Origin: a virus
Virus record (IMG/VR): IMGVR_UViG_3300045988_081423
Direction: 5' to 3' (one strand)
DNA length: 64,000 bases
Shown here: positions 1,213 to 35,896 of the stretch, piece after piece
Layout of the letters: each line of letters opens with the position of its first letter
How positions within the stretch are numbered: position 1 is the first letter of the stretch
Program-made: the position numbers and the translations under genes
The notes under the pieces: model-generated
Databases searched by the model: none
What the model saw: only the letters and a program-made list of their open reading frames with translations
Told to the model about the DNA's origin: nothing

Positions 1213-1294
1213 AAAGACCAGAGGATAGAAACATTAAGCTGCTATCACCCATTGTTAGGAGATACAGGTTCTTTGGCTTGCCTGTCTGGTCTTT
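1213..1294. repeat. 10-bp inverted repeat AAAGACCAGA / TCTGGTCTTT enclosing about 62 nt
   Basis: Read directly from the sequence; followed by TTATTATTT. It could be a long-loop terminator for agrB or flank structure of the IscB element. No cloverleaf is present. Confidence 0.4.
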
Positions 1295-1303
1295 ATTATT
1301 TAT

Positions 1304-1651
1304 AATTGTAGTCGTACAATTGTGGGACGCTATAGGCTCTTTGTGTTCTATGATTGTAGGTATCTACAAACTATAAGAGTTTGTAGTTTCCATTAAATAG
1401 CCTACCAGACTTAGTTACCAGAAATGATAACTACGATATTTAGGTTATGACACCCTCGGTTGACGCAACAGACCGTCGCTCTGTCGTATATATTTAAGTT
1501 AGGTTGGAGTAATAGTAGCCTTGTGATATATACGCTAAAGCCTTTATATCATTGTCGAGTTGAGGTCGGAAAAGCTATGTGGTAATAGTATAGCAATACG
1601 CACAACCATTACATAAGTAATGGAGTTATTTTTACGAAAGGGGTGTCTAGT
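1304..1651 (+). ncRNA. candidate omega-RNA (IscB guide-scaffold RNA); 5' end uncertain
   Basis: About 350 nt without an ORF lie directly upstream of, and in the same orientation as, iscB. The stretch is dense in stems: TTGTAG/CTACAA, CTACAAAC/GTTTGTAG, TAGTTA/TAACTA, TGATATA/TATATCA, CCATTAC/GTAATGG. Confidence 0.55.
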
Positions 1652-2908
1652 ATGGTATATGTATTGAATATTGATGGACAACCGCTTATGCCAACTACTA
1701 GGCACGGTAAAGTCAAACATCTTCTAAAAGATGGTAAGGCTAAAGTAGTTAAGCGTTGTCCATTCACAATTAAACTTCTATACGAGACTCCTAATTGCAC
1801 ACAAGATTTAACTCTTGGGATTGATACAGGAAGTGGCGCAATAGGAACTGCCGTTTCTACCGATGATGGCGAAATAGTTTATATGTCGGAAGTAGTTGTT
1901 AGAAATGACATTACTGACAAAATGACTCAAAGGGCCAAATACCGCAGAAATAGACGTAGCAGAAAAACTCGTTATAGAAAAGCAAGATGGCTAAATCGCA
2001 AAAATTCAATTAAGAAGGATAGATTTAGTCCCACGATGGTAAGTAAACTCCATAGCCACGTTAAAGAAATAGAATATATCAAATCTATTCTCCCTATAAC
2101 TACTATGGTCTTTGAAACAGGAACATTTGATACTTACCTTATGAAAAATCCAAGCCTTGTAAATGAAAATGTAAGACATTGGGGATACCAAAAAGGAACA
2201 AATTATGGGTTTGAAAATACCAAGGCTATGGTTTTAAATCGAGATAATTATACTTGTCAGTATTGCAAAGGTAAACATAAAGATAGTAAACTGGAAGTTC
2301 ATCATATTGTGTTTCGCAGCAAACATGGTTCAGACGAAGAAAGTAATTTGATTACACTTTGTCATACTTGCCATAAGGCGTTGCATAGTGGTAAAATTAG
2401 TCTTAAATTAGAAGGTAAGGTCAAAGGGAATCTAAAATATGCTACACAGATGAATAGTATTCGTAAACAATTATTTAGAATCTACTCGGAAGCAATTGAA
2501 ACTTTTGGTTATATAACAAAGGCAAATCGTCTAAAACTTGGAGTAGATAAAGAGCATTTTTATGACGCTTGTGTTATTGCAACACATGGAAATAAATTTA
2601 GCGTAAGATGCAATTTATACAAAAAGAAATGTGTTTCAGATGGGGATTTTCAACAGACTAAGGGAGTTCGTTCTGAGCAGCGCATTCCAACGTGTAAAAT
2701 TCAGGGGTTCAGAAAGTTTGATAAGGTGAGATATTTTGGTAAAGAATATTTTATAAAAGGAAGGCTTTCTACTGGGTATGCAATACTTATGGATATAGAT
2801 GGTAATAAATCCGATTTTTCTTATATGCCGAAAGGTTTTAAAACGCCTAAAATTATAAATCTAAAAAGATTAGAAGCTCGTTCATCGTGGATAGTAATTT
2901 TTAAATGA
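1652..2908 (+). CDS. iscB: IscB RNA-guided nuclease (PLMP, split RuvC, HNH, C-terminal target-interaction-like domain)
   Basis: AAAGGGG RBS then ATG 1652 (the track start GTG 1643 is less likely). Motifs in order: DGQPLMPTT; LGIDTGSGAIG; RAKYRRNRRSRKTRYRKARW; MVFETGTFD; CQYC..EVHHIVFRSKHGSDEESNLITLCHTCH; HFYDACVIA; GRLSTGYAILMDIDG. Confidence 0.85.
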   Translation: MVYVLNIDGQPLMPTTRHGKVKHLLKDGKAKVVKRCPFTIKLLYETPNCTQDLTLGIDTGSGAIGTAVSTDDGEIVYMSEVVVRNDITDKMTQRAKYRRNRRSRKTRYRKARWLNRKNSIKKDRFSPTMVSKLHSHVKEIEYIKSILPITTMVFETGTFDTYLMKNPSLVNENVRHWGYQKGTNYGFENTKAMVLNRDNYTCQYCKGKHKDSKLEVHHIVFRSKHGSDEESNLITLCHTCHKALHSGKISLKLEGKVKGNLKYATQMNSIRKQLFRIYSEAIETFGYITKANRLKLGVDKEHFYDACVIATHGNKFSVRCNLYKKKCVSDGDFQQTKGVRSEQRIPTCKIQGFRKFDKVRYFGKEYFIKGRLSTGYAILMDIDGNKSDFSYMPKGFKTPKIINLKRLEARSSWIVIFK

Positions 2909-2948
2909 CATAAAAATAATTGTACGACTATTTTTGTGAGGTGGTCGT

Positions 2949-3215
2949 ATGATTATAAATGATTTAGCAACAATAGCAAATTCTGATTTAATATCAGGAG
3001 CTGCAAACATTAGTCAATTTATAAATGTCTATCAAGCGACTAAAGGTGCGACATCATCTCAGTTAAATACAGAGCTAATCAAGCAAAACCAGCATATTGA
3101 AAATAAACTTGACGAACAAACGAATATGTTGCTTGAAAAATTATTGTCTGAATTAAAGATTATAGAAGAACAAAATATTGAAATAATTAAACTTCTGGAT
3201 GGTGGCGTCAAATGA
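2949..3215 (+). CDS. hypothetical small coiled-coil protein
   Basis: GAGGTGG RBS. 88 aa with no TM segment. The C-terminal heptad-like segment EEQNIEIIKLL resembles that of the next ORF. Confidence 0.5.
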   Translation: MIINDLATIANSDLISGAANISQFINVYQATKGATSSQLNTELIKQNQHIENKLDEQTNMLLEKLLSELKIIEEQNIEIIKLLDGGVK

Positions 3216-3436
3216 TTCTTAATACTAATGCAGAATTAGGTGGATTAGATGCTATTGGTGTTGCAGACACGATTATTGCTTCATTGTTATTGAATTATTC
3301 AGAGAAATCTTATAAGTTAAATCTTGATAACACCTCGGAAAATAAAAAGGTTATTTCTCTATTAAACGAAATAAATGAAAATGAAAAAACTATTATTTCC
3401 TTATTACAAGGAATAATAGAAGATAATAAGCATTAG
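3212..3436 (+). CDS. hypothetical small coiled-coil protein (distant paralogue of the previous ORF)
   Basis: ATGA start/stop overlap with 2949-3215. 74 aa, containing NENEKTIISLLQGI. Confidence 0.5.
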   Translation: MILNTNAELGGLDAIGVADTIIASLLLNYSEKSYKLNLDNTSENKKVISLLNEINENEKTIISLLQGIIEDNKH

Positions 3437-3578
3437 TCTTGTCTTATCGGTAAAATAATCCAGACTGAAATAAACGAGTGACGGTTTTGACTCGTTGTAA
3501 AAATAAAAATTGACCGAGCGATGATTCACGATATGGAATAAAAGGGGTCAAAAATATTATAGAAAGTAGTGGGTATCA

Positions 3579-4049
3579 ATGGATGTATTGCAAATTATTA
3601 TTAATATTTGCTCTACTTTTGGTGTGTCTGGACTTCTTTTGTTCTTTGTGAAAAGGCACTATGAAAAGGAAGACGGGGCTTTAAAAGAGGAAAAACAGGA
3701 GAGAAGAGAAATTAAGGATGCGATTGATAAAATTGCTAAACAAAACGAAGAGCAGTATGCAATGATTGCATTTCAAAATGATAAGATAAGTTCTCTTTCT
3801 GATGACGTAAAGGCTTTAAGAGAACAAGGAAGTCAAAATTCTCAGGCAGACAGAGATATGCTTCGGGATGCTATGCTAAGAACATATCATAACTGTTATG
3901 AGGTAAAAGGATGGATTTCTGTTAATGACTTAGAAAGTTTTCAACATATGTTTGAGAGCTACACGGCATTACATGGGAATGGTATGATTCCGAGTGTGCG
4001 TGAAAAAATTATGAGTTTACCAACTATCCCTCCTGAGAACAAAACATAA
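3579..4049 (+). CDS. membrane-anchored coiled-coil protein (BhlA/holin-like N-terminus?)
   Basis: N-terminal TM segment IIINICSTFGVSGLLLFFV followed by a charged helix. The C-terminal segment reads RDMLRDAMLRTYHNCYEVKGWISVNDLESFQHMFESYTALHGNG. Confidence 0.5.
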   Translation: MDVLQIIINICSTFGVSGLLLFFVKRHYEKEDGALKEEKQERREIKDAIDKIAKQNEEQYAMIAFQNDKISSLSDDVKALREQGSQNSQADRDMLRDAMLRTYHNCYEVKGWISVNDLESFQHMFESYTALHGNGMIPSVREKIMSLPTIPPENKT

Positions 4050-25516: not shown

Positions 25517-26036
25517 ACAAAAGTTCAAAGAGAGTATTCCTAAAGATGTGGCAGTAATTAGACTGCATGATAGCGCAAGTGGTTTTGGACAAGATAGTAG
25601 GTCAACAAGATTTTCTATGAAATCTCCGTTTGACTTTATCTTGTTCAAAACTCCTTGTATGTATTGTTTAGAACTAAAATCAACAGACAAGAAAAGTTTT
25701 TCTTTTGAACGTGAGAAACCAACGAAAGAAAATCCTACTAAACGAGAAATTCATTGGCATCAAATTCAAGCTCTTACTGAGTATAATAAATATTGTAATT
25801 GTATATGTGGTTTTGTGTTAGACTTTAGAAATGATGGAACTTATTTCTTGAGTATCAAAGATTTTAATAAATTTAAAGAAGAATCAACTAAGGTTTCAAT
25901 AAATATTCAGGACTGTATTGCGCATGGTGCTGTTCAAATAGATAAAAAATTAAAAAAGAAATATTATAGCTACGATGTGGCAAAGTTATTAGATAAGATT
26001 GGAAGTGACGAAATTGGGAAGAAGAACCGTATATAA
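25494..26036 (+). CDS. RecU-like PD-(D/E)xK Holliday-junction resolvase (putative)
   Basis: SPFDFILFKTP..YCLELKST...IHWHQIQAL matches the RecU-type D..E.K..hQ motif order. ATG 25494 is preferred over 25467. Confidence 0.5.
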   Translation: MNVGKIFEQKFKESIPKDVAVIRLHDSASGFGQDSRSTRFSMKSPFDFILFKTPCMYCLELKSTDKKSFSFEREKPTKENPTKREIHWHQIQALTEYNKYCNCICGFVLDFRNDGTYFLSIKDFNKFKEESTKVSINIQDCIAHGAVQIDKKLKKKYYSYDVAKLLDKIGSDEIGKKNRI

Positions 26037-27057
26037 TAGGATTTATACAGAAGAAATTTGGGCAAAGGTTAACGAAGACAATAAAAACTTGTTGAAAGAT
26101 TATCTTGCATATAAGACTACTGGCGGTCGTTCTCCACAGACGATTTATCAATATGAACAAATGATTCGTCTGTTTTTCTGTTGGAATTATTTGCATAATA
26201 AAGACACGTTCTTTGTAGATTTGAAGAAGCGGCAACTCGTTAGTTTCTTTAATTACGCAATCACAGAAATGGGATGGTCTAGTAATAGAATCTCTACTAT
26301 TAAATCATCTCTATCTTCTATGTCAGATTATATTGAAAATGTTCTTGATGATGAGTTTCCTGATTTTAGAAATATTGTTGTCAAACTGGAAACTCCTGTA
26401 AAGCAGACTGTTCGTGAAAAGACTGTTATGAGCGAAGAGCAGATTCAAGATTGTCTTGACAAACTAGTTGCTGCTAAACGATATCAGGCTGCTTGCTATC
26501 TTGCACTTGCCGTTAGTTGCGGTGCGAGAAAAGCAGAGCTTATTCAGTTTAAGACAAACTGGTTTACTGATGAAAATATTGTTTATGGCTGTATGTGGAA
26601 AACACCTGAACAGATTCGTACTAAAGGGCATGGTAAACAGGGCAAGTTGCTCTATAAGTTTACCTTTATTAAGTCATTTAAACCATATTATGAGATGTGG
26701 ATGAAATATCGTAAAGAAAATAATATCGAAAGCGAATGGTTGTTTATTGTGAAAAATGATGATGACACTTATCGTCAAGCAAGTATTTCAACAGCAGATA
26801 GTATTTGCAGAACAATCTCAGCCTTTATGAATACGGATTTCTATAGTCACTGCTGTAGGCATCGTTACGTTACTATGATGAAAGAATCTAAACTGCCAGA
26901 CGATGTTATTATTGCTCTTGTGGGCTGGGAAGCTGGGTCAGGAGGGGCTATGTGCGCAACTTATTGCGATTTAGACACCGCCGACACACTTGGTGATTAT
27001 TTTGATGAGAACGGTATTAAGCAAGATATTAAAACTGGTACTCTGAATGATATTTAA
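25999..27057 (+). CDS. tyrosine recombinase (phage integrase/Xer family)
   Basis: N-terminal SAM-like core-binding domain. Catalytic-type motifs: GARKAEL (Arg), HCCRHRYVT (H-x-x-R), LVGWEAGSGGAMCATYCD (Tyr). Non-ATG start, either TTG 25999 or TTG 26017. Confidence 0.75.
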   Translation: MEVTKLGRRTVYNRIYTEEIWAKVNEDNKNLLKDYLAYKTTGGRSPQTIYQYEQMIRLFFCWNYLHNKDTFFVDLKKRQLVSFFNYAITEMGWSSNRISTIKSSLSSMSDYIENVLDDEFPDFRNIVVKLETPVKQTVREKTVMSEEQIQDCLDKLVAAKRYQAACYLALAVSCGARKAELIQFKTNWFTDENIVYGCMWKTPEQIRTKGHGKQGKLLYKFTFIKSFKPYYEMWMKYRKENNIESEWLFIVKNDDDTYRQASISTADSICRTISAFMNTDFYSHCCRHRYVTMMKESKLPDDVIIALVGWEAGSGGAMCATYCDLDTADTLGDYFDENGIKQDIKTGTLNDI

Positions 27058-28360: not shown

Positions 28361-30181
28361 ATGGCACAAGCACAAAGCGATTTATTTAGTTTTCTAATTA
28401 CACCAGAATTTGATACAAAAGATGTTACAGATAGCGCACAAATACTACAAAAAGAGCTTGAAAAAGTTGCAGAAAAAATATCAATACAAATAAGTAAAGC
28501 AATGGGAAAGGGTTTTTCGTTCCCATCTGGTTTTCAACCAAAAGATATTAATGAAGTAACAAAATATATCGAAACCCTTGGGGGCAGCGTCAAACGTGTT
28601 GGAACTGTCATAACTTCTTCTTTCAAAGATGCAAGCGGAACAGTAACAACCCTAAAACAAAACATCAACGACGCTATAAATTCTGCTCAGTTGGCAAGCC
28701 TACAATCTATGAGTGGAAATCCTAAGAATATAGATATTATAAATAAACAGTATGCTCAACTAAGAAGTTCTAGTGCTACATACACTGGAACGGAACAGGT
28801 TAAGCAACAAAACGAATTAGAACAACAGATTATTAAATCTTTGCAAGAGCGATATAGCTTAGAGGGTAAAATATCAGACGCAAAAGCAAGCGGAAACAAG
28901 ATTACAGAAACTTATTATACGCAACTAAGAGATATTGCTGTTGCAGAAGAACAACAATTAGAATCACAATATAAAGGTTCTCAAACACGAATAAATTCCG
29001 TGAAACAGCAGTTGTCTCTTGAACAACAATTGCGACAACAAAAGGCACAATCTACTGCGGAAGAAAATAAAGCTGTTGAGGCCATAAAACAATACGCAAA
29101 ACAATATCAGACTGTCAAGCAATTAGAGAGCAAAGGTCAACAAAACACTCAGGCTTATACTGATGCTAAAAATGCTTTACAGCAGTTAACAAATACTTTA
29201 ACAACGTATGGTGTTAAAGTTGTAACAAGCTCCGACGGCACAACAAAACTTGTAGCACAACAAAATTCAATGGCTGACAGCTCCAATAAGGTTAAAACAG
29301 CGTTGGACAATGCCAATGGCAGTTTAGTAAAAACTGATACTGCACAAAATTCCCTATCGCAATCTATTCAGTCTAGTGTAGAGAACTTTATTAAATATCA
29401 GGTGGCTATGGAAGCCATCAACAAAATCACTAGCGAATTCACATCTGCAATTTATGATATGAACGAAGCCATGACACAGGTTCGTATGGTTACAATGGGT
29501 AGCTATGAAGATACTGTGGCATTGGCTGATAGTTATACTAAATTGGCAAAGCAACTTGGTACTACTACGACCACAGTTGCAGAAGGTGCAGATGCTTGGT
29601 TAAGACAGGGTTATAATGCTCAAGAAGCAATGGAGATGCTAAAACAGTCAACTACGTTGGCTGTTGTTGGTCAATTGGACGCAAGCGAGGCGACTGACCA
29701 ACTCACTGCAATCACAAAATCCTATAATGTAGCTGTAGACGATACAAGCAAAATCGTAGATAAACTTGTGCAAGTAGACCTTTCCTACGCGGCCAGCACA
29801 GGTGAAATTTCTACAGCATTACAGAAAGTCGCTAGTTCTGCTGGACAGGCGGGGTTAGGACTTGATAAACTAATCGGTCTAATTACTATTTCTGAGGAAA
29901 AGACTCGACAAGCGCCAGAAGTTATTGGGTCTGCTTGGCAGAGTATCATCTCGCGTATATCAAAAATCACGGCAAAAGTAGATTTGGATGACCTCGTTGA
30001 TGAGCAAGGTATAACCCACACAATCAATGATGCAGATAAAGTTCTATCCAAATACGGAATTACACTAGTTGATACAAACGGTAAAATGCGCGAAATTGGT
30101 ACTGTTCTTGATGAAATCGGTGCAAAATGGAACAGCATGAGCACTCTTGAACAGAACCAGTTGGCTTATGTTGTCGCCGGT
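28361..30181 (+). CDS. tail tape measure protein, exon 1
   Basis: AGGAGGTGGG RBS. Coiled-coil-rich, with the conserved TMP core (...LGTTTTTVAEGADAWLRQGY...QLAYVVAG). The frame is lost after GGT at 30181. Confidence 0.75.
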
Positions 30182-30235
30182 TCGATAAGTGCTGGCGTAA
30201 AACGTACTTAATTGACGGGAAACCCCTTTAGAGTC

Positions 30236-30265
30236 TTGACAACTAAGTTATTATAGTGATATAAT
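30236..30265 (+). promoter_or_regulatory. sigma-70-like promoter inside the intron, upstream of the HNH ORF
   Basis: TTGACA at 30236-30241, an 18-nt spacer, and TATAAT at 30260-30265. Confidence 0.45.
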
Positions 30266-30525
30266 AATGGTTGGAAGTAATCAATCCAAGTATAGTAAAA
30301 TAGTCAAGAATTGGGCAACCCGCAACCAAGCAACTATGAAAATAGTTGAAGGCTCAACGACTATCCAGTTAGCGTTAAATTAACGCAATAGGAGTAGGGC
30401 GCAATTCGCTACTGCGTGGGTGAAAACCCCTTAAATCGAAATGGTACGGCATATCATAGATATGCAAGATATAGTCTATTCTCATGCAAAAGCATGAGCA
30501 TTTTTATGTTATATTGAGGTTATAA

Positions 30526-31518
30526 ATGGGAAAAGTAATCAGATGGACAGACGAAGAAATTCAATTATTAAAAGAGCATTATCCTAATGATTCATGGGAT
30601 AATATTTTATCTTTTATTCATAGAGAAAAAGGAAATATTATTACCAAAGCAAGTAAACTTGGAATCGTAAGGAATAGTCCAAATAAAAAGATTGAATGGT
30701 CTGACGAAGAGGTTGAAATTCTTAGAGGTGTTTATCTAACAACAAGGCTAGAAGACATTCCGAGACTGCATTTACCAAATAAATCCAAAGATGCCATTAT
30801 TAGAAAAATGGGAGAACTAAGGTTGCTAAAATCAAAACCTTGGACACAAGGAGAAATAGAAAAATTTATCAAATTATATCCAAACACAGACAATAAAGAA
30901 CTTTGTAAAATATTTGGAAGAACAAAGAATGCCATAATCAACGAATCTCAAAAACTTAATTTATATAAAAGCAATAGATTCACAGAGGAAGATATTGCTT
31001 TTATAAGAAACAACTATCTTAAAATGTCAGATTTTGAAATCGGAGAAATTCTCGGCCATCATTGGAGAGTCGTAAAGGATAAGCGTTTGTCTTACGGATG
31101 GAAACATTCTGAACCAATCTTAGGACAAGGATATAAAAGTATTGTTGAATTTTGTCGTAAAAGCACACCCGGTTGGAGAAATGAGAGTATTGCATATTGT
31201 AATCATAAATGTGTAATCACAGGAGAAGAATTTGACGACGTTCATCATCTTTATTCTGCGAATCTCATTATAAAAGAAGTCGCAGACATTATTCCTCTTG
31301 AACCAAACGCTTCTCCCGAAATGTATGACGAGGAATATCTTGGAGAGATTCTTGACTTATTTGATAAGAAACAGCGAGAGTATGGACACGGAGTTTGTTT
31401 GACAAAAGAAATTCATACGATGTTTCATAAAGAATATGGATTCGGGAATAATACAAAAGGACAGTTTCTTGATTTCGTAGATAAACATAGTTTTAAATTA
31501 TTAGTCGATATAACATAA
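30526..31518 (+). CDS. HNH homing endonuclease with four SANT/Myb-like W-x-[DE]-E-E repeats
   Basis: Repeats: IRWTDEEIQLLKEHY, IEWSDEEVEILRGVY, KPWTQGEIEKFIKLY, NRFTEEDIAFIRNNY. HNH region: CNHKC..DDVHHLYS...CLTKEIHTMFH. Confidence 0.75.
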   Translation: MGKVIRWTDEEIQLLKEHYPNDSWDNILSFIHREKGNIITKASKLGIVRNSPNKKIEWSDEEVEILRGVYLTTRLEDIPRLHLPNKSKDAIIRKMGELRLLKSKPWTQGEIEKFIKLYPNTDNKELCKIFGRTKNAIINESQKLNLYKSNRFTEEDIAFIRNNYLKMSDFEIGEILGHHWRVVKDKRLSYGWKHSEPILGQGYKSIVEFCRKSTPGWRNESIAYCNHKCVITGEEFDDVHHLYSANLIIKEVADIIPLEPNASPEMYDEEYLGEILDLFDKKQREYGHGVCLTKEIHTMFHKEYGFGNNTKGQFLDFVDKHSFKLLVDIT

Positions 31519-31564
31519 TATACAAAGATAGCAACTTTGTGAAATAAATAACAAAACAAGACAG

Positions 31565-34500
31565 CGCAACGTCTTTATTGCTGCTATGGAGGATTATAAC
31601 CGTGTATTAGAAGCAACTGAAGTTGCAGAAAATGCAAACGGTGTTGCCGCTGAAAAGATGACGGTTTATAACGAGTCTCTTGAAGCTGCACAAAATAGAT
31701 TAACCGCAAGTGTTCAACAATTTGCACAGGATTCTAACCTTGATAGAACCCTTGCATTAGCCTACGACGGTCTGTCCAAAATCGTAGAAATTCTAAATAT
31801 TTTACTAAATAAAATTCCAGTTTTAAGTCCACTAATTAAAGCCCTTGGTGTTGCTCTAGCAACAGCTTTCGCAGGCAATATACTTAAAAATATATGGGAG
31901 ACATCCAATTTAATCGGGCAACTTCCAAGTCTTGCGATGACTGCCACAAGTGCGATTGGGGCGCTAAATACAACATTATTTACAATAGGTTCTGTTGCAG
32001 TACCAATATGGGGTGTAGTAGCAGCCATTACCGCCATTGGAGCTGTTGCGAAAGTTGCATGGAACGCTTGGAAAGATGCTCAACCAGAGGCACAAATCAA
32101 AAAAGCAAACGAAGCCTTGCAAGAGAGCCAACAGAGTCTTGATGAGACAAATAATAAAATAACTGAAATTAACAAACAAATCTCAGAAATCAACTCTAAA
32201 GGTACTTTAACTTTAGCAGATGAGCAACAAAAAGAGAACCTTCAAGAGCAACTTGATTTGCTCGAAGAAATTAAAACAACACAAGAAGCTATAAATAAAG
32301 AAAAATCTGCACAGGCATTATCTGCCGAACAAGCAAAAGCTAAAAAAATGACACCATATAGTTCAGAAGATGTGTCTCAGTATCAAGCAGGGCTTCAATC
32401 TACACAAAATTATGCGACCGCAATATCTACTGAAAATATAAACGAATTGATTGCGGCATATCAACAACTTGAGAAAGAAAAGAAAAATCTGAACTCAGCA
32501 GACGAAGATTATGCAGAACAATTAAAAACCAACGAACAACTAACATCTTCTTTTACCACAAAGTTGTTAGAGCAAAAACAGTCTTACCTAGATGAGATGA
32601 AGGCTCTTTCAAATTTAGGAGATACAAGTTCAGAAACATATAAGGCGTTACAGCAAGCTGTTGACATGATAAATGTCACACTTGACCCGTCTAATTTTGA
32701 AACACTTAAAGTCCAAAATCTAATTGACACATCTGGAATTGAAGACAAAATTAAAGAGGCTGTTCAGGCTGGCGATAAAGCCGGTGGCGAAATGGCTACG
32801 GCATACGCTAAGAGTTTCGCAGAAAAAATATTAAAAGATACTAGCATGAAACAATCGTTTGCTGAGGCAATGGGTGTCAACGTAAACGAGTTAAATATAG
32901 ACAATTTAACACAAGAAATCCTCAGCAAATTCCAACAGATGTATAATAATATTTCTGATGGATACAATGATGTTGTACAGAATGTTTTTAGTAAAACAGA
33001 TGTTGTTAGTGCTTATGCTAGTATTCTTGAAAAAGTAAACGAAAAGACAAAGGTTTTGTCAAAAGCATACAAAGAATTGACGAAACAGGGTAGCTTAACG
33101 ACTGACACAACTCAAAAACTTATCGAACTATACCCAGACCTTGCAAAACAACTTGATTTTACAAGTGGTAAAATTACTCTCAATGTAAACGTTCTTAAAG
33201 ACCTCTATAATGCAGAATACAAGTCCGCAGAAGCAACGGTTAAGGCAGAAATTCAAAAAACAAAAGCTACTATTGCTGGCGTAGAAGCAAGAATTGCGGC
33301 ACTAGAAGCAGAGAAACAAAAACTTCTGCAAACTTTAGATGCGGGTGTTTTAAGCGGTCGAGATGAGGCGTTTGCCGAAAAGCAAATGTTGCTTCTTGAG
33401 CAATCTGGTTCTAAAGCTAATGCGAATTTGGAAAAAGCGGAAGAGCATTTAAAAGATTTAAATAGTTTACTTGGTCTTGTTCAAAACACTGCAAAATCTG
33501 GGCTAGGCTCCGGTACAAAGGATAGCTCTTCTGGGAAATCTGGTAAATCTGCCGCTGATAAAGCTGCAAAAGAATTTGAGAATGAAATCAAAGAAAAGGT
33601 TCAAAACCTAAAGAGTATTGTACAGTTGTATTCTGAGAATGCTAACTGGGATGACCCAACTGTCATCAAAGAGTTCCAAGACAGATACGACAAAATCTTA
33701 AATGAAGTCATAAACGACCCAAAAGCCAGAAAAGTTCTAGCTGATGCGTTTAATCTTGATATAAGCAATATGCCAGTTGAACAACAAATTCAAGAACTAA
33801 CAACGCTATGGCAAAAACAAGCTGGTACAATTCAAGAATCGTATCAAAAACTTCTAAAGAATCTAGCTAAAGAAGATTTGAGTTCTGCCAAGGCTGTTAT
33901 AGAAAAATATAAAAATGGTATTTATGGCGCTTGGAGTTCTGACGAAGCACTGAATGCAGCAAAAGCTGATTATCAGAAGTTTATTGACAAAATCACCAAT
34001 GACGCAGATTACAGAGCTGCTATGGCAGAAGCGTTAAACCTTGGGGATATTAGTGGAGAACCAGTAGAGAAACAAGTAGAAGCTGTTATAAACGCCTTAC
34101 TAAAGTCTACTGGTACACTTGATAACACCCAGCAAGACCTATATGATGACGCTTCTAAGAATATCAAAGCATTACAAGATGAAATCGAGGACATGATTGA
34201 TACAGCAATCGGTTTGCTTGAAAAGGCTGGCGATTTTCTGTTTGATATGTTGGATAAGATTTCTGACAGATATGATGCTCAGATTGACAATCTTGATAAG
34301 ATTTCTGACGAACTTGATGACCAAAAAGATGCCTTTGAAGATAAGATTGACCAGCAAAAAGAACTCCTGAAACTTCAAAAAGAAGAGATGGATAACGCTG
34401 ACGAGCTTGCTGAAAAGAATAAATCTATTGCAGATATTGATGCCCAATTGATGGAATTGCAATATGACAATTCAGCGGAAGCACAGGCTAAACGTCTTAA

Positions 34501-35896
34501 ACTTCTCGATGAAAGAGCACAAAAAGAAAAAGACCTTGCTGATTGGCAAAAAGATAACGATTATAATACCAAGATTGACGCCCTTGATAAAGAAAAATCA
34601 GAATATGAAAAGACAATTGAAGCAGAAAAGAAAGCAATAGAAGCACAAAAACAAACTTTGCAAGATGCTCAGAAACAATTTGAAACTACTCTGGGGAATA
34701 TCCAAAATGGTTTCAATACATTTATTAAAATTCTTAGTAGTGATTTTGTCAAGAACCTAATTAGCAAAGCACTAATTGGCACTGGTCAAGATACAGTGAC
34801 ACAATTGCTTACTGGTTATAATAAATTATTTGGTACTGGTATTGATTCTGACGTAACTGGGATAATCAAAGAAGGATATAAAAGTCTAGCAGATATTGGT
34901 AGTGACACGCTAAATAATGTTTCAAATTATAATAACAGAATTGTCAAGAGTGCGACAAAAGGTATAAAAAGTATTATCAGCAATACGACAAATGGCGTTA
35001 AGTCTATTTTTGATTCCAGTAATGGATTTATGAAAAGATTAACATCTAATGGTATATCTTCGCTAAATACGATTGGGACAAATGGCAAGGGAATTATTTC
35101 CAGTCTAGCTGGAACGGCAAATAGTTTACTGAGCAATTTGAATAGATTTGCCAGTGGGATAGGGCAGATTGCAACCAAAGGCATATCTGGTATATTCTCT
35201 GGTATTGGAGGAATGACTAGTGGAGTTGCAGGCGGTATGGGAGGCATTGGTTTAGCTGGTGCTGGCCTATCTAGCGCACTTCCAATCGCTGCAATAGGAG
35301 CGGGTGTTTTGTCTGGTGCTTTGGCAAATGTTAGTACATGGTACAATAACATCAAGCTCTGGAAAGACAAAGACAAATCTACTGGTAAAAAAATACTTGG
35401 AACAATCGGAAATCTGATACTCCCTTTCTTGCCCGGTGGTATGCTGATATCAGCCGGGAAAGCCCTATCTAGTCTATTTAAAAAACACCATACTGGTGCT
35501 GATTATGTAAAAAAACAGAATCCTATGTTGGACAAAATGTTAGGACTCGGAAGTGACGAGACTGTATCCATTCTAAAAGTTGGAGAGGCTATTGTGCCCA
35601 CATGGGCAAATGGAGCAAATAGTTCCGGCAGCAGTAATAGATTTACGGGAAGTCCATTTGGAAGTGCTGTAGACTCTGCCGTTAAAACCGCAAGAGTAAA
35701 TACCAGAACGTACTCTAGTTCCAACAGCTCTTCTATTAATATCTCTATGCCTATTAATATTCAGGGAGACGCAGATGCTTCTACTGTAAACTCTTTGAGG
35801 AAAGAGGCAGACAACATTGTGAATAAAGTTCTAAAAACTATCAATAACCAAACTAGAATTGGTGGCTATAGAAATATAAAAGCAGCAACGATTTAA
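31565..35896 (+). CDS. tail tape measure protein, exon 2
   Basis: Open frame with no RBS at the track ATG 31586. Contains long coiled coils, a Gly-rich TM segment (GIGGMTSGVAGGMGGIGLAGAGL) and a C-terminal domain. The spliced TMP is 2050 aa. Confidence 0.75.
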   Translation, partial: RNVFIAAMEDYNRVLEATEVAENANGVAAEKMTVYNESLEAAQNRLTASVQQFAQDSNLDRTLALAYDGLSKIVEILNILLNKIPVLSPLIKALGVALATAFAGNILKNIWETSNLIGQLPSLAMTATSAIGALNTTLFTIGSVAVPIWGVVAAITAIGAVAKVAWNAWKDAQPEAQIKKANEALQESQQSLDETNNKITEINKQISEINSKGTLTLADEQQKENLQEQLDLLEEIKTTQEAINKEKSAQALSAEQAKAKKMTPYSSEDVSQYQAGLQSTQNYATAISTENINELIAAYQQLEKEKKNLNSADEDYAEQLKTNEQLTSSFTTKLLEQKQSYLDEMKALSNLGDTSSETYKALQQAVDMINVTLDPSNFETLKVQNLIDTSGIEDKIKEAVQAGDKAGGEMATAYAKSFAEKILKDTSMKQSFAEAMGVNVNELNIDNLTQEILSKFQQMYNNISDGYNDVVQNVFSKTDVVSAYASILEKVNEKTKVLSKAYKELTKQGSLTTDTTQKLIELYPDLAKQLDFTSGKITLNVNVLKDLYNAEYKSAEATVKAEIQKTKATIAGVEARIAALEAEKQKLLQTLDAGVLSGRDEAFAEKQMLLLEQSGSKANANLEKAEEHLKDLNSLLGLVQNTAKSGLGSGTKDSSSGKSGKSAADKAAKEFENEIKEKVQNLKSIVQLYSENANWDDPTVIKEFQDRYDKILNEVINDPKARKVLADAFNLDISNMPVEQQIQELTTLWQKQAGTIQESYQKLLKNLAKEDLSSAKAVIEKYKNGIYGAWSSDEALNAAKADYQKFIDKITNDADYRAAMAEALNLGDISGEPVEKQVEAVINALLKSTGTLDNTQQDLYDDASKNIKALQDEIEDMIDTAIGLLEKAGDFLFDMLDKISDRYDAQIDNLDKISDELDDQKDAFEDKIDQQKELLKLQKEEMDNADELAEKNKSIADIDAQLMELQYDNSAEAQAKRLKLLDERAQKEKDLADWQKDNDYNTKIDALDKEKSEYEKTIEAEKKAIEAQKQTLQDAQKQFETTLGNIQNGFNTFIKILSSDFVKNLISKALIGTGQDTVTQLLTGYNKLFGTGIDSDVTGIIKEGYKSLADIGSDTLNNVSNYNNRIVKSATKGIKSIISNTTNGVKSIFDSSNGFMKRLTSNGISSLNTIGTNGKGIISSLAGTANSLLSNLNRFASGIGQIATKGISGIFSGIGGMTSGVAGGMGGIGLAGAGLSSALPIAAIGAGVLSGALANVSTWYNNIKLWKDKDKSTGKKILGTIGNLILPFLPGGMLISAGKALSSLFKKHHTGADYVKKQNPMLDKMLGLGSDETVSILKVGEAIVPTWANGANSSGSSNRFTGSPFGSAVDSAVKTARVNTRTYSSSNSSSINISMPINIQGDADASTVNSLRKEADNIVNKVLKTINNQTRIGGYRNIKAATI

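What the first reader, a model, noticed from the sequence alone, without database searches (positions are those of the whole stretch)
30182..31564. Tape-measure gene interrupted by a group I intron encoding a SANT/Myb-repeat HNH endonuclease
The TMP frame stops making sense after ...QLAYVVAG (GGT ends at 30181). It resumes at ...RNVFIAAMEDYNRVLEA... with no RBS.

Exon GCCGGU pairs with GCUGGC 9 nt into the insert (P1 helix, U-G at the splice site). This is the same loop length as in the terL intron. The only in-frame acceptor preceded by G is 31564/31565.

The insert carries a free-standing ORF (30526-31518). It has four W-x-[DE]-E-E-type SANT/Myb-like repeats fused to an HNH motif (DDVHHLYS ... 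CLTKEIHTMFH). This is an uncommon DNA-binding module for a homing endonuclease.

The 3' splice site is my inference and could be off by a few nt.
Basis: partly seen in the sequence, partly recalled or inferred. Interest (0 to 1): 0.65.

Follow-up and report, generated by a model that had tools for sequence, protein, structure and literature searches.

The report
Tape-measure intron ending in A
A gut phage's tail tape-measure gene is split by a self-splicing group I intron that carries its own homing nuclease gene. This is an ordinary arrangement, except that comparison with relatives puts an A, not the near-universal G, at the intron's last position.

Summary
The tape-measure protein (TMP) frame breaks after GGT at 30181. 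Rfam finds a group I intron at its curated threshold (30157-30498). P1 is GCCGGU/GCUGGC with a U-G pair at the splice site. A free-standing 330-aa ORF (30526-31518) has four Myb-like repeats and an HNH-type nuclease domain that resembles phage T5 SciA.

Every uninterrupted homologue reads AG-[TV]-[RN]-Q-x-N. The window has ACA AGA CAG (TRQ) in frame at 31556-31564. Six introns in other TMP genes that carry an endonuclease ORF of this family all end ...G| directly before their 3' exon. Four of the six sit at this same AG| site. The window type (at least 14 contigs) and a diverged sister lineage (L035) have A at that column.

The intron is therefore 30182-31555 (1374 nt) and ends in A. The guanosine-binding pair in P7 is unchanged.

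Introns in TMP genes are already known. An intron lacking the terminal G is known only from hexacoral mitochondria. Whether splicing really occurs after the A is inferred and needs RT-PCR.

The parts
28361..30181 (+). TMP exon 1 (607 codons, ends ...QLAYVVAG)
   Evidence: ORF list. PF10145 PhageMin_Tail over residues 394-602, E 3.1e-28. Uninterrupted homologues continue AG-TRQ.
30175..30181 (+). P1 5' strand (exon CGCCGGU). U30181 is the 5' splice-site U.
   Evidence: Pairs with 30191-30197. GCCGGT is invariant in all type-1 alleles, whereas intron-less alleles have GCA GGC or GCC GGA.
30182..31555 (+). Group I intron as delimited by comparison with relatives (1374 nt). The last nucleotide is A31555.
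30191..30197 (+). Internal guide sequence (GCUGGCG), the P1 3' strand
   Evidence: 7 bp with 30175-30181, including U30181-G30191. The same design is seen in L035 (GCCGGU/GCUGGC) and L032 (GCAGGU/GCUUGC).
30157..30498 (+). Ribozyme core, P1 to P9 (Rfam RF00028 match). It has extra hairpins between the P7 5' strand and the P3 3' strand. P7 is 30359-30363 / 30472-30476 (GACUA/UAGUC).
   Evidence: cmscan 54.8 bits against a gathering score of 50. 17 base pairs show compensatory changes among window, L035 and L032.
30504..30517 (+). 5' strand of the long-range P9.1-like helix that loops out the ORF. It overlaps the ORF's GAGG ribosome-binding site (30516-30519).
   Evidence: 14 bp with 31505-31518 (3 of 500 shuffles reach the energy). 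Equivalent helices with different sequence occur in L032 and L035.
30526..31518 (+). Homing endonuclease gene: four Myb-like repeats (residues ~5-190) plus a SciA-like HNH nuclease domain (~200-330)
31505..31518 (+). 3' strand of the P9.1-like helix (covers the ORF's last codons and its stop)
31522..31540 (+). P9.2-like hairpin ACAAAG-AUAGCAA-CUUUGU
   Evidence: Compensatory A-U to G-C change in L035 (ACGAAG/CUUCGU). Other stems occur in L032, L088-L090 and L001 intron 1, with similar loops.
31541..31555 (+). A-rich single-stranded tail GAAAUAAAUAACAAA, ending in A at the position where relatives have the terminal G
   Evidence: Alignment A4. The 37-nt tail is 89.5% identical to L035, against 66-72% for the exons.
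31556..31564 (+). ACA AGA CAG = T-R-Q, the first three codons of exon 2 by homology.
   Evidence: Homologues read AG[TV][RN]Q. The same 9 nt is exon sequence in a type-2 allele, L021. L035 has ACU AGA CAA, both changes synonymous. Uninterrupted GCCGGTACAAGACAR occurs in other TMP genes.
31556..35896 (+). TMP exon 2 (1446 codons plus stop). The spliced TMP is 2053 aa.

Best explanation
The window carries a mobile group I intron (30182-31555) in the phage tape-measure gene. It sits between the Gly and Thr codons of the conserved motif A-G-T-R-Q.

What the sequence and comparisons show:
- The ribozyme core lies at the 5' end (P1-P9, with extra hairpins of the subgroup IA kind).
- The homing endonuclease gene is looped out by a long-range P9.1-like helix.
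- After the ORF come a small P9.2 hairpin and a 15-nt A-rich tail.

What is inferred:
- The endonuclease (four Myb-like DNA-binding repeats plus a SciA-like HNH nuclease) cuts intron-less TMP alleles at or near GCCGGT|ACAAGACAG and spreads the intron by homing.
- Splicing starts conventionally. Exogenous G attacks after U30181, which sits in a U-G pair in P1.

The unusual point is the second step. By homology the 3' splice site is 31555|31556 and the terminal nucleotide is A, not the usual G, although the G-binding pair in P7 is canonical. I take the mature TMP to read ...AYVVAG-TRQRNVF..., that is, exon ligation after the A. The boundary is shown by comparison. Ligation at that phosphate is inferred.
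For: (1) It is a group I intron.
- RF00028 scores above its gathering score in the window (54.8 bits), in L035 (69.6 bits) and in L032 (60.9 bits).
- 17 predicted pairs carry compensatory changes.
- BLAST similarity to introns of Staphylococcus, Bacillus and crAss-like phages.

(2) The boundary is 31555/31556.
- Uninterrupted homologues all read AG[TV][RN]Q.N.
- Intron-less DNA in L006, L007, L019, L020 and L031 contains those codons.
- The haplotype ACA AGA CAG CGC AAC GTC is plain exon sequence in L021.
- Six introns in other TMP genes that carry an endonuclease ORF of this family end ...G| directly before their 3' exon. Four are at this same AG| site: L032, L036 and L038 before ACA, and L090 before AAU. 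L088 and L089 are at another site.
- In alignment A4 the terminal-nucleotide column is A, A, G.

(3) The A is old and tolerated.
- The window type occurs in at least 14 phage contigs, including two with the ORF deleted and one with a frameshifted ORF.
- L035 shares the A, although its exons are only 66-72% identical and its endonuclease 68%.

(4) Substitution pattern between window and L035.
- TRQ has 2 synonymous and 0 non-synonymous changes.
- The next five codons have 2 synonymous changes and one replacement.
- The 24 nt upstream have 0 synonymous changes. Both of their changes would be replacements if read as codons, and one is compensatory in P9.2.

(6) Precedent. The hexacoral mitochondrial ND5-717 intron has a terminal A and is spliced in vivo (PMC8146996, PMC6545197).

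(7) The endonuclease.
Against: - There are no RNA data. No ligated junction was found in any collection searched.
- The G-binding pair of P7 (G30359-C30476) is identical in lineages ending in A and in G. Standard group I chemistry, as I recall it from Tetrahymena terminal G-to-A mutants, then predicts a badly impaired second step.
- In the window an in-frame G-preceded acceptor does exist 9 nt downstream (31564). A frameshifting one exists 5 nt downstream (31560).
- Among type-1 alleles the 9 nt ACAAGACAG never vary, while the next codon does (AGA or CGC). This is also what one would see if the 9 nt belonged to the intron.
- P10 with the proposed exon 2 is only 2-3 bp.
- The window sequence alone does not reach Pfam cut-offs for HNH or Myb.
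Confidence: 0.55

Rival explanations
1. The intron is 30182-31564, G31564 is the terminal G, and the exons join as AG|RNVF. The TMP lacks T-R-Q. The 9 nt ACAAGACAG would be former exon sequence captured by the intron after the original terminal G mutated to A.
For: It obeys both chemical rules (a U before the 5' site, a G before the 3' site) and is in frame. Variation among type-1 alleles starts exactly at 31565. The G-binding site is canonical.
Against: It deletes three residues conserved in every homologue, down to about 33% identity. It is impossible in L035, where the codon is CAA and no nearby in-frame G acceptor exists apart from the -24 site. TRQ in L035 differs only synonymously. No P10 is possible, because the first exon nucleotides differ between alleles (CGC or AGA).
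Confidence: 0.2
2. The 3' splice site is G31531|C31532, inside the P9.2 loop. The TMP gains eight residues (AG-QLCEINNK-TRQ). This obeys the U and G rules in both the window and L035.
For: It is the only canonical, in-frame, stop-free junction shared by the window, L002 and L035 that keeps AG and TRQ.
Against: The homologous hairpin and A-rich tail are unambiguously intronic in L032, L088-L090 and L001 intron 1. The 24 nt show no synonymous change between window and L035, although flanking codons change at about one synonymous site per two codons. Both changes would be replacements (C to R, N to I), and one is a compensatory stem change. The junction would break a motif that is contiguous in all homologues. 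The candidate G is simply the G of the in-frame stop codon UAG.
Confidence: 0.08
3. Splicing is defective or mis-targeted (for example at G31560, which shifts the frame). The phage then makes the TMP as two polypeptides, or only a small correctly spliced fraction supports growth.
For: G31560 is the first G after the tail. It has the same 2-bp P10 potential (AC with G30189-U30190) as the proposed site. TMP is needed in only a few copies per virion (general knowledge), so inefficient splicing could suffice.
Against: There is no ribosome-binding site before the in-frame ATG at 31586. The ribozyme core and 3' tail are conserved, with compensatory changes, across diverged lineages and are kept in derivatives that have lost the ORF. 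That argues for selection on splicing.
Confidence: 0.12

Closest known systems
Group I introns in tape-measure genes of Bacillus cereus-group prophages (three positions, IVS1-3; Tourasse and Kolsto 2008, PMC2504315)
   Same: Self-splicing-type introns, some with HNH or GIY-YIG endonuclease genes, at several positions within one TMP gene. Relatives of this window likewise carry one to three introns at four or more positions.
   Different: A different phage group (uncultured human-gut phages) and a different endonuclease family. The terminal nucleotide here is A. I did not compare insertion sites with the Bacillus introns.
Phage T4 nrdD (sunY) intron and Twort/SPO1-type subgroup IA phage introns (from my own knowledge)
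   Same: The compact core is followed by an ORF looped out downstream of P9, with a short 3'-terminal domain that must fold back to the core. There are extra hairpins between P7 and P3. BLAST similarity to Staphylococcus and Bacillus phage introns.
   Different: No P2 in the window type. Those introns end in G. Their endonucleases differ (e.g. I-TevIII, I-HmuI, I-TwoI) and lack Myb repeats.
Hexacoral mitochondrial ND5-717 group I intron (PMC8146996, PMC6545197)
   Same: The terminal nucleotide is A instead of the near-universal G, yet the exons are reported as precisely ligated in vivo.
   Different: An organellar, vertically inherited, giant intron carrying host genes in P8, possibly dependent on host factors. 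The phage intron is small, mobile, carries an endonuclease gene and has close relatives that end in G. No splicing data exist for it.
Phage T5 SciA endonuclease (PDB 9qgv, 9qgx)
   Same: Best structural match of the C-terminal nuclease domain: probability 1.00, TM 0.61-0.68, 122 aligned columns. The His-His pair lies near SciA's mutated catalytic H42.
   Different: Only 20% identity. SciA is a stand-alone 120-aa protein. Here the domain is fused to four Myb-like repeats and sits in an intron.

Membership tests
Group I intron (Rfam RF00028) | Covariance-model score at or above the curated gathering score | tested here: met
   54.8 bits against 50, E 3.6e-11, full model 1-253. L035 scores 69.6 and L032 scores 60.9.
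Group I intron (Rfam RF00028) | P1 helix between the 5' exon and the internal guide, with a U-G wobble at the 5' splice site | tested here: met
   C30175-U30181 pairs with G30191-G30197, with U30181-G30191 at the site. The exon hexamer GCCGGT is invariant in intron-bearing alleles only.
Group I intron (Rfam RF00028) | P7 with a G-C guanosine-binding pair | tested here: met
   GACUA 30359-30363 pairs with UAGUC 30472-30476. The sequence is the same in L035 and L032. P7 was read by eye, because the Rfam model does not annotate the pseudoknot.
Group I intron (Rfam RF00028) | Core helices supported by compensatory changes | tested here: met
   17 of 86 predicted pairs have changes on both sides that keep the pair (P3, P6, P7.1, P8, P9.2), from only three sequences.
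Group I intron (Rfam RF00028) | The last intron nucleotide is G | tested here: not met
   At the boundary defined by homology (31555|31556) the nucleotide is A. Relatives L032, L036, L038, L088-L090 and L001 intron 1 have G there. It would be met only under the rival junctions at 31564 or 31531.
Group I intron (Rfam RF00028) | Self-splicing with exon ligation | not testable with these tools
   There are no RNA data. Scans for a ligated junction found nothing relevant.
HNH homing endonuclease | Conserved His...Asn...His catalytic and metal-binding residues | tested here: met
   H240, H241, H297 and H301 are invariant and C229 and C291 nearly invariant in 30 family members. N246 is invariant among the 7 closest sequences.
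HNH homing endonuclease | Nuclease fold resembling a solved HNH-type enzyme | tested here: met
   The domain model has pLDDT 92. Foldseek matches T5 SciA at probability 1.00, TM 0.61-0.68, E 0.013. That SciA is an HNH enzyme rests on my own knowledge.
HNH homing endonuclease | Curated Pfam HNH model at threshold | tested here: not met
   HNH_2 gives E 0.2 and 12 bits against a cut-off of 21. Only one of 30 relatives reaches E 0.007.
HNH homing endonuclease | Cleaves the intron-less allele and promotes homing | not testable with these tools
   Indirect evidence only. The same endonuclease family sits at the same AG| site in five TMP lineages (window type, L035, L032, L036, L038) and in a sixth, L090.
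Myb/SANT-like DNA-binding repeats | Sequence-profile match to Myb repeats | tested here: met
   The family profile matches c-Myb R1R2R3 (1h88_C) at E 1.7e-9. 13 of 30 relatives hit PF00249, best E 7.7e-13. The window protein alone is below the cut-off (15.3 against 24.4 bits).
Myb/SANT-like DNA-binding repeats | Three-helix repeat units | tested here: met
   AF2 gives four sets of three helices over residues 9-189. One repeat superposes on the GcrA DNA-binding domain 5yiu (TM 0.80, rmsd 1.2).
Phage tape-measure protein | PF10145 domain in a very long ORF among tail genes | tested here: met
   PF10145 at E 3.1e-28. The spliced length is 2053 aa.

The most novel reading that the evidence does not exclude
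This would be a natural, mobile phage group I intron that ligates its exons after a terminal adenosine although its guanosine-binding site is canonical. The state is conserved in two lineages whose exons have diverged by about 30%. It would be the first such case outside hexacoral mitochondria. It would also be easy to study: small, with a natural version lacking the ORF, and with close relatives ending in G that serve as built-in controls.
Probability: 0.5. Interest if true: 0.7.

Novelty: new variant of a known kind. Interest (0 to 1): 0.55.

Why it matters
Group I introns with homing endonucleases in phage structural genes, tape-measure genes included, are well known. The basic finding is therefore ordinary.

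What would matter is the terminal nucleotide. The 3'-terminal G is treated as universal and essential for exon ligation. A viable phage lineage that has kept an A there through long divergence would be informative on either outcome. If it ligates at that site, 3' splice-site choice can rest on something other than G docking. If it uses a cryptic site, a conserved TMP motif is dispensable. Either result can be tested directly with one RT-PCR and a short in vitro transcript.

There are also practical points. Gene callers split this TMP into three 'genes'. In addition, the endonuclease family (Myb repeats plus a SciA-like HNH domain), with 763 clusters at E <= 1e-30, is essentially unannotated.

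Tried and rejected
- Metagenome scan for a ligated junction, GCCGGT N{0,9} MGMAAYRTHTTYATTGC. It returned 32 hits, all chance matches in unrelated sequence.
- Viral-contig scan for variants of this intron's tail with any base at the terminal position. It returned only the nine contigs already known, all with A.
- Prophage or host search in GTDB genomes. There was no relative of this TMP. Alignment A5 was too diverse for that tool. The nuclease domain gave five weak hits in metagenome-assembled genomes from several phyla. The host remains unknown.
- Foldseek with the full-length four-domain model. It gave no global match, so the nuclease domain was modelled separately.
- PDB sequence search with the single protein found nothing meaningful.
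- Rfam on L036 and L038. The inserts that carry the endonuclease ORF are not recognised as RF00028, so their ribozyme class is unresolved.
- An exon 1-exon 2 helix (GUUGUC/GACAGC) proposed by RNAalifold. Rejected because it is not kept in the other type-1 alleles.
- Alternative 5' splice sites (+1, +2, +5, +9). Rejected because they lack a P1 with U-G and differ between lineages.
- Literature searches for a group I intron lacking the terminal G in a phage found nothing. A search for a SciA paper found nothing usable.
- Simple motif scans found no second IA-type core in the window.

Full report
**What is there**

- The ORF starting at 28361 carries a PhageMin_Tail domain (PF10145, residues 394-602, E 3.1e-28). 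It runs into a stop at 30209-30211, nine codons after GGT 30179-30181.
- The same frame is open again downstream and continues for more than 1400 codons to 35896.
- Between the two parts, Rfam's group I intron model matches 30157-30498 above its curated threshold (54.8 bits against 50, E 3.6e-11, full-length).
- A 330-aa ORF follows at 30526-31518, with GAGG 7 nt upstream of its ATG.
C30175-U30181 pairs with G30191-G30197, with U30181-G30191 at the splice site and a 9-nt loop.
- The intron core resembles known introns of Staphylococcus, Bacillus and crAss-like phages at 70-73% identity.

**The ribozyme is under selection**

I collected relatives from GenBank, IMG/VR and metagenome assemblies.
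- The same intron ('type 1') is present at the same place in at least 14 phage contigs: the window, L002, L003, L008-L018, L023, L024, L026 and L028-L030, some of these being the same contig fetched twice.
- L035 carries a diverged sister (endonuclease 68% identical, exons 66-72%).
- L032 carries a more distant homologue (endonuclease 54%).
- Across these three, RNAalifold finds 17 pairs with compensatory changes, in P3, P6, P7.1, P8 and a 3' hairpin.

A 14-bp long-range helix (30504-30517 with 31505-31518) brackets the ORF. Only 3 of 500 shuffles reach its energy. Equivalent helices with different sequences exist in L032 and L035. The ORF is therefore looped out of a P9.1-like stem. After it come a hairpin (31522-31540) and a 15-nt A-rich tail.

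Two contigs (L015/L016 and L029) have lost about 830 nt of the ORF but keep the core, helix, hairpin and tail. L014 has a frameshift in the ORF. This is the usual decay of a homing endonuclease gene inside a retained intron.

**The 3' boundary**

The evidence against it is as follows.
- All uninterrupted homologues read AG-[TV]-[RN]-Q-x-N. Examples are AGVRQRNIF and AGTRQRNVF at 78-91% identity, and AGTNQANIF and AGTRQQNYF at 33-45%.
- The window has ACA AGA CAG (= TRQ) in frame at 31556-31564.
- Intron-less alleles in sister phages contain these codons (L006, L007, L019, L020, L031).
- The exact haplotype ACA AGA CAG CGC AAC GTC is ordinary exon sequence in L021, which carries a different intron 6 nt upstream.
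- Uninterrupted GCC GGT ACA AGA CAR also occurs in unrelated TMP genes.
- Six other introns in TMP genes carry an endonuclease ORF of this family. Each ends with G directly before its 3' exon:
  - L032...AAUAAG|ACA AGG CAA
  - L036...AAUUG|ACA CGC CAG
  - L038...ACCG|ACA CGC CAA
  - L090...AAAAAAAG|AAU CGU
  - L088 and L089, at another TMP site...AAAAG|AAU
- A related ORF-less intron at a second TMP site in L001 splices as GGCU|...AAAUUG|AAGACAG.
- In the alignment of window, L035 and L032 the tails line up column by column. The terminal column reads A, A, G.

**Why I prefer the A-terminal boundary to the rivals**

- L035 has ...AUAUCAAA|ACU AGA CAA CGC AAU. TRQ is kept with two synonymous changes.
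- I enumerated every junction that has a U before the 5' site, a G before the 3' site, is in frame and has no stop. Only two are shared by the window and L035. One, at -24, lies inside the 3' hairpin loop and would insert eight residues. The other would delete AGTR.
- The -24 site is disfavoured for three reasons. The homologous hairpin and tail are clearly intronic in seven relatives. Its 24 nt show no synonymous change between window and L035. Its two changes would both be amino-acid replacements, and one is a compensatory stem change. By contrast, the eight codons from ACA onward carry four synonymous changes.
- The 37-nt tail is 89.5% identical between lineages whose exons are 66-72% identical. 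It evolves as constrained RNA, and codon-like evolution begins at 31556.
- Against my reading, the G-binding pair of P7 (GACUA/UAGUC) is unchanged. The 9 nt are invariant among type-1 alleles, while the next codon varies. No RNA evidence exists.
- A precedent exists. The hexacoral mitochondrial ND5-717 intron has a terminal A and is reported to be precisely spliced in vivo.

**The endonuclease**

- The window protein alone misses all Pfam thresholds (Myb E 0.02, GcrA 0.017, HNH_2 0.2). It does hit PHROGs annotated as HNH endonuclease and transcriptional regulator through its repeats.
- At the family level the picture is clear. An exhaustive search finds 763 clusters at E <= 1e-30, many of them full length.
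- 13 of 30 relatives hit Pfam Myb_DNA-binding. The family profile matches c-Myb R1R2R3 at E 1.7e-9.
- AF2 gives four three-helix repeats. One repeat superposes on the GcrA DNA-binding domain.
- The C-terminal domain (pLDDT 92) matches the phage T5 SciA endonuclease (probability 1.00, TM 0.61-0.68).
- H240, H241, H297 and H301 are invariant in the 30-sequence family alignment, and C229 and C291 nearly so. N246 is invariant among the 7 closest sequences.
The module is uncommon only among characterised enzymes. The family is large and unannotated; sources call its members 'hypothetical protein'.

**Context and novelty**

Group I introns at three positions in prophage TMP genes were described in the Bacillus cereus group (PMC2504315). 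An intron-split TMP is therefore not new. In this phage group the TMP gene is a hot spot:
- an ORF-less intron at AWL|RQG (L001);
- a second intron type with a DUF7487-family endonuclease at VV|AG (L001, L004, L005, L021 and others);
- the type-1 and L032-type introns at AG|T;
- a further intron 19 nt downstream in L032, which leaves a 19-nt mini-exon.

The one feature that lies outside the known pattern is the terminal A.

**Verdict**

The 3' junction moves to 31555/31556. The intron is a new variant of a known kind, conditional on experimental confirmation of where ligation occurs.

Noticed in passing
window 1214-2908: A 421-aa ORF (1643-2908) has RRXRR (E 7e-51) and HNH domains, i.e. it is IscB-like. 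Directly upstream lie a HEARO RNA match (RF02033, 1356-1570, 76.3 bits, just under the gathering score of 83) and a skipping-rope RNA match (RF02924, 1214-1293, 47.7 bits). This looks like a phage-borne IscB/omega-RNA element.
   Followed up: partly
L001 2646-3000 (corresponds to window ~29603-29605): The closest GenBank relative (MT835481.1) has an ORF-less group I intron (Rfam 75 bits) at a second TMP site, AWL|RQG, where the window is uninterrupted (TGG TTA AGA CAG GGT). Its core is about 79% identical to part of the window intron. It splices canonically as GGCU|...AAAUUG|AAGACAG.
   Followed up: yes
L001 3578-4866; also L004, L005, L021, L022, L025, L027, L033: A different insert of about 1.0-1.3 kb sits 6 nt upstream of the window's site (GUGGUU|...GAUUGG|GCN GGN). 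It carries a 308-319-aa DUF7487 / PHROG 'homing endonuclease' ORF. Rfam does not reach threshold for it, although it contains AAAAUAUAGUC, which resembles the conserved AAGAUAUAGUC stretch that ends in the P7 3' strand of the window intron. The two intron types occupy overlapping target sites in sister phages.
   Followed up: partly
L032 276-2600: One TMP gene has three Rfam-supported group I introns within 2.6 kb. They include a 19-nt mini-exon (ACAAGGCAACGAAAUGUAU) between two introns.
   Followed up: partly
L014 (1-nt deletion at window-equivalent 30825); L015/L016 and L029 (about 830 nt deleted, window-equivalent ~30668-31494): The endonuclease ORF is frameshifted or mostly deleted in some alleles, while the ribozyme core, the bracketing helix and the tail are kept.
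   Followed up: partly
window 25999-27057: A 352-aa Phage_integrase-family ORF (E 2.8e-11) lies directly upstream of the tail-assembly and TMP genes. This is an unusual position for an integrase. It is conserved in relatives (L002, L004, L005).
   Followed up: no
No second copy of the conserved AAGAUAUAGUC or UCAACGACUA core motifs exists in the window.
   Followed up: partly
L036 ~2420-3716 and L038 ~2363-3613: Inserts at the same AG|T site carry homologous endonuclease ORFs (P0072, P0074) but are not recognised as RF00028 at E <= 0.01. They may be a different ribozyme scaffold carrying the same endonuclease family.
   Followed up: no
window 30526-31518 and L001 3752-4675: PHROG 5104 (unknown function) matches the C-terminal nuclease region of the window endonuclease (residues 207-318, profile positions 131-227). 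It also matches the N-terminal part of the unrelated-looking type-2 endonuclease (residues 1-149, profile positions 1-113). That PHROG seems to combine two modules.
   Followed up: no
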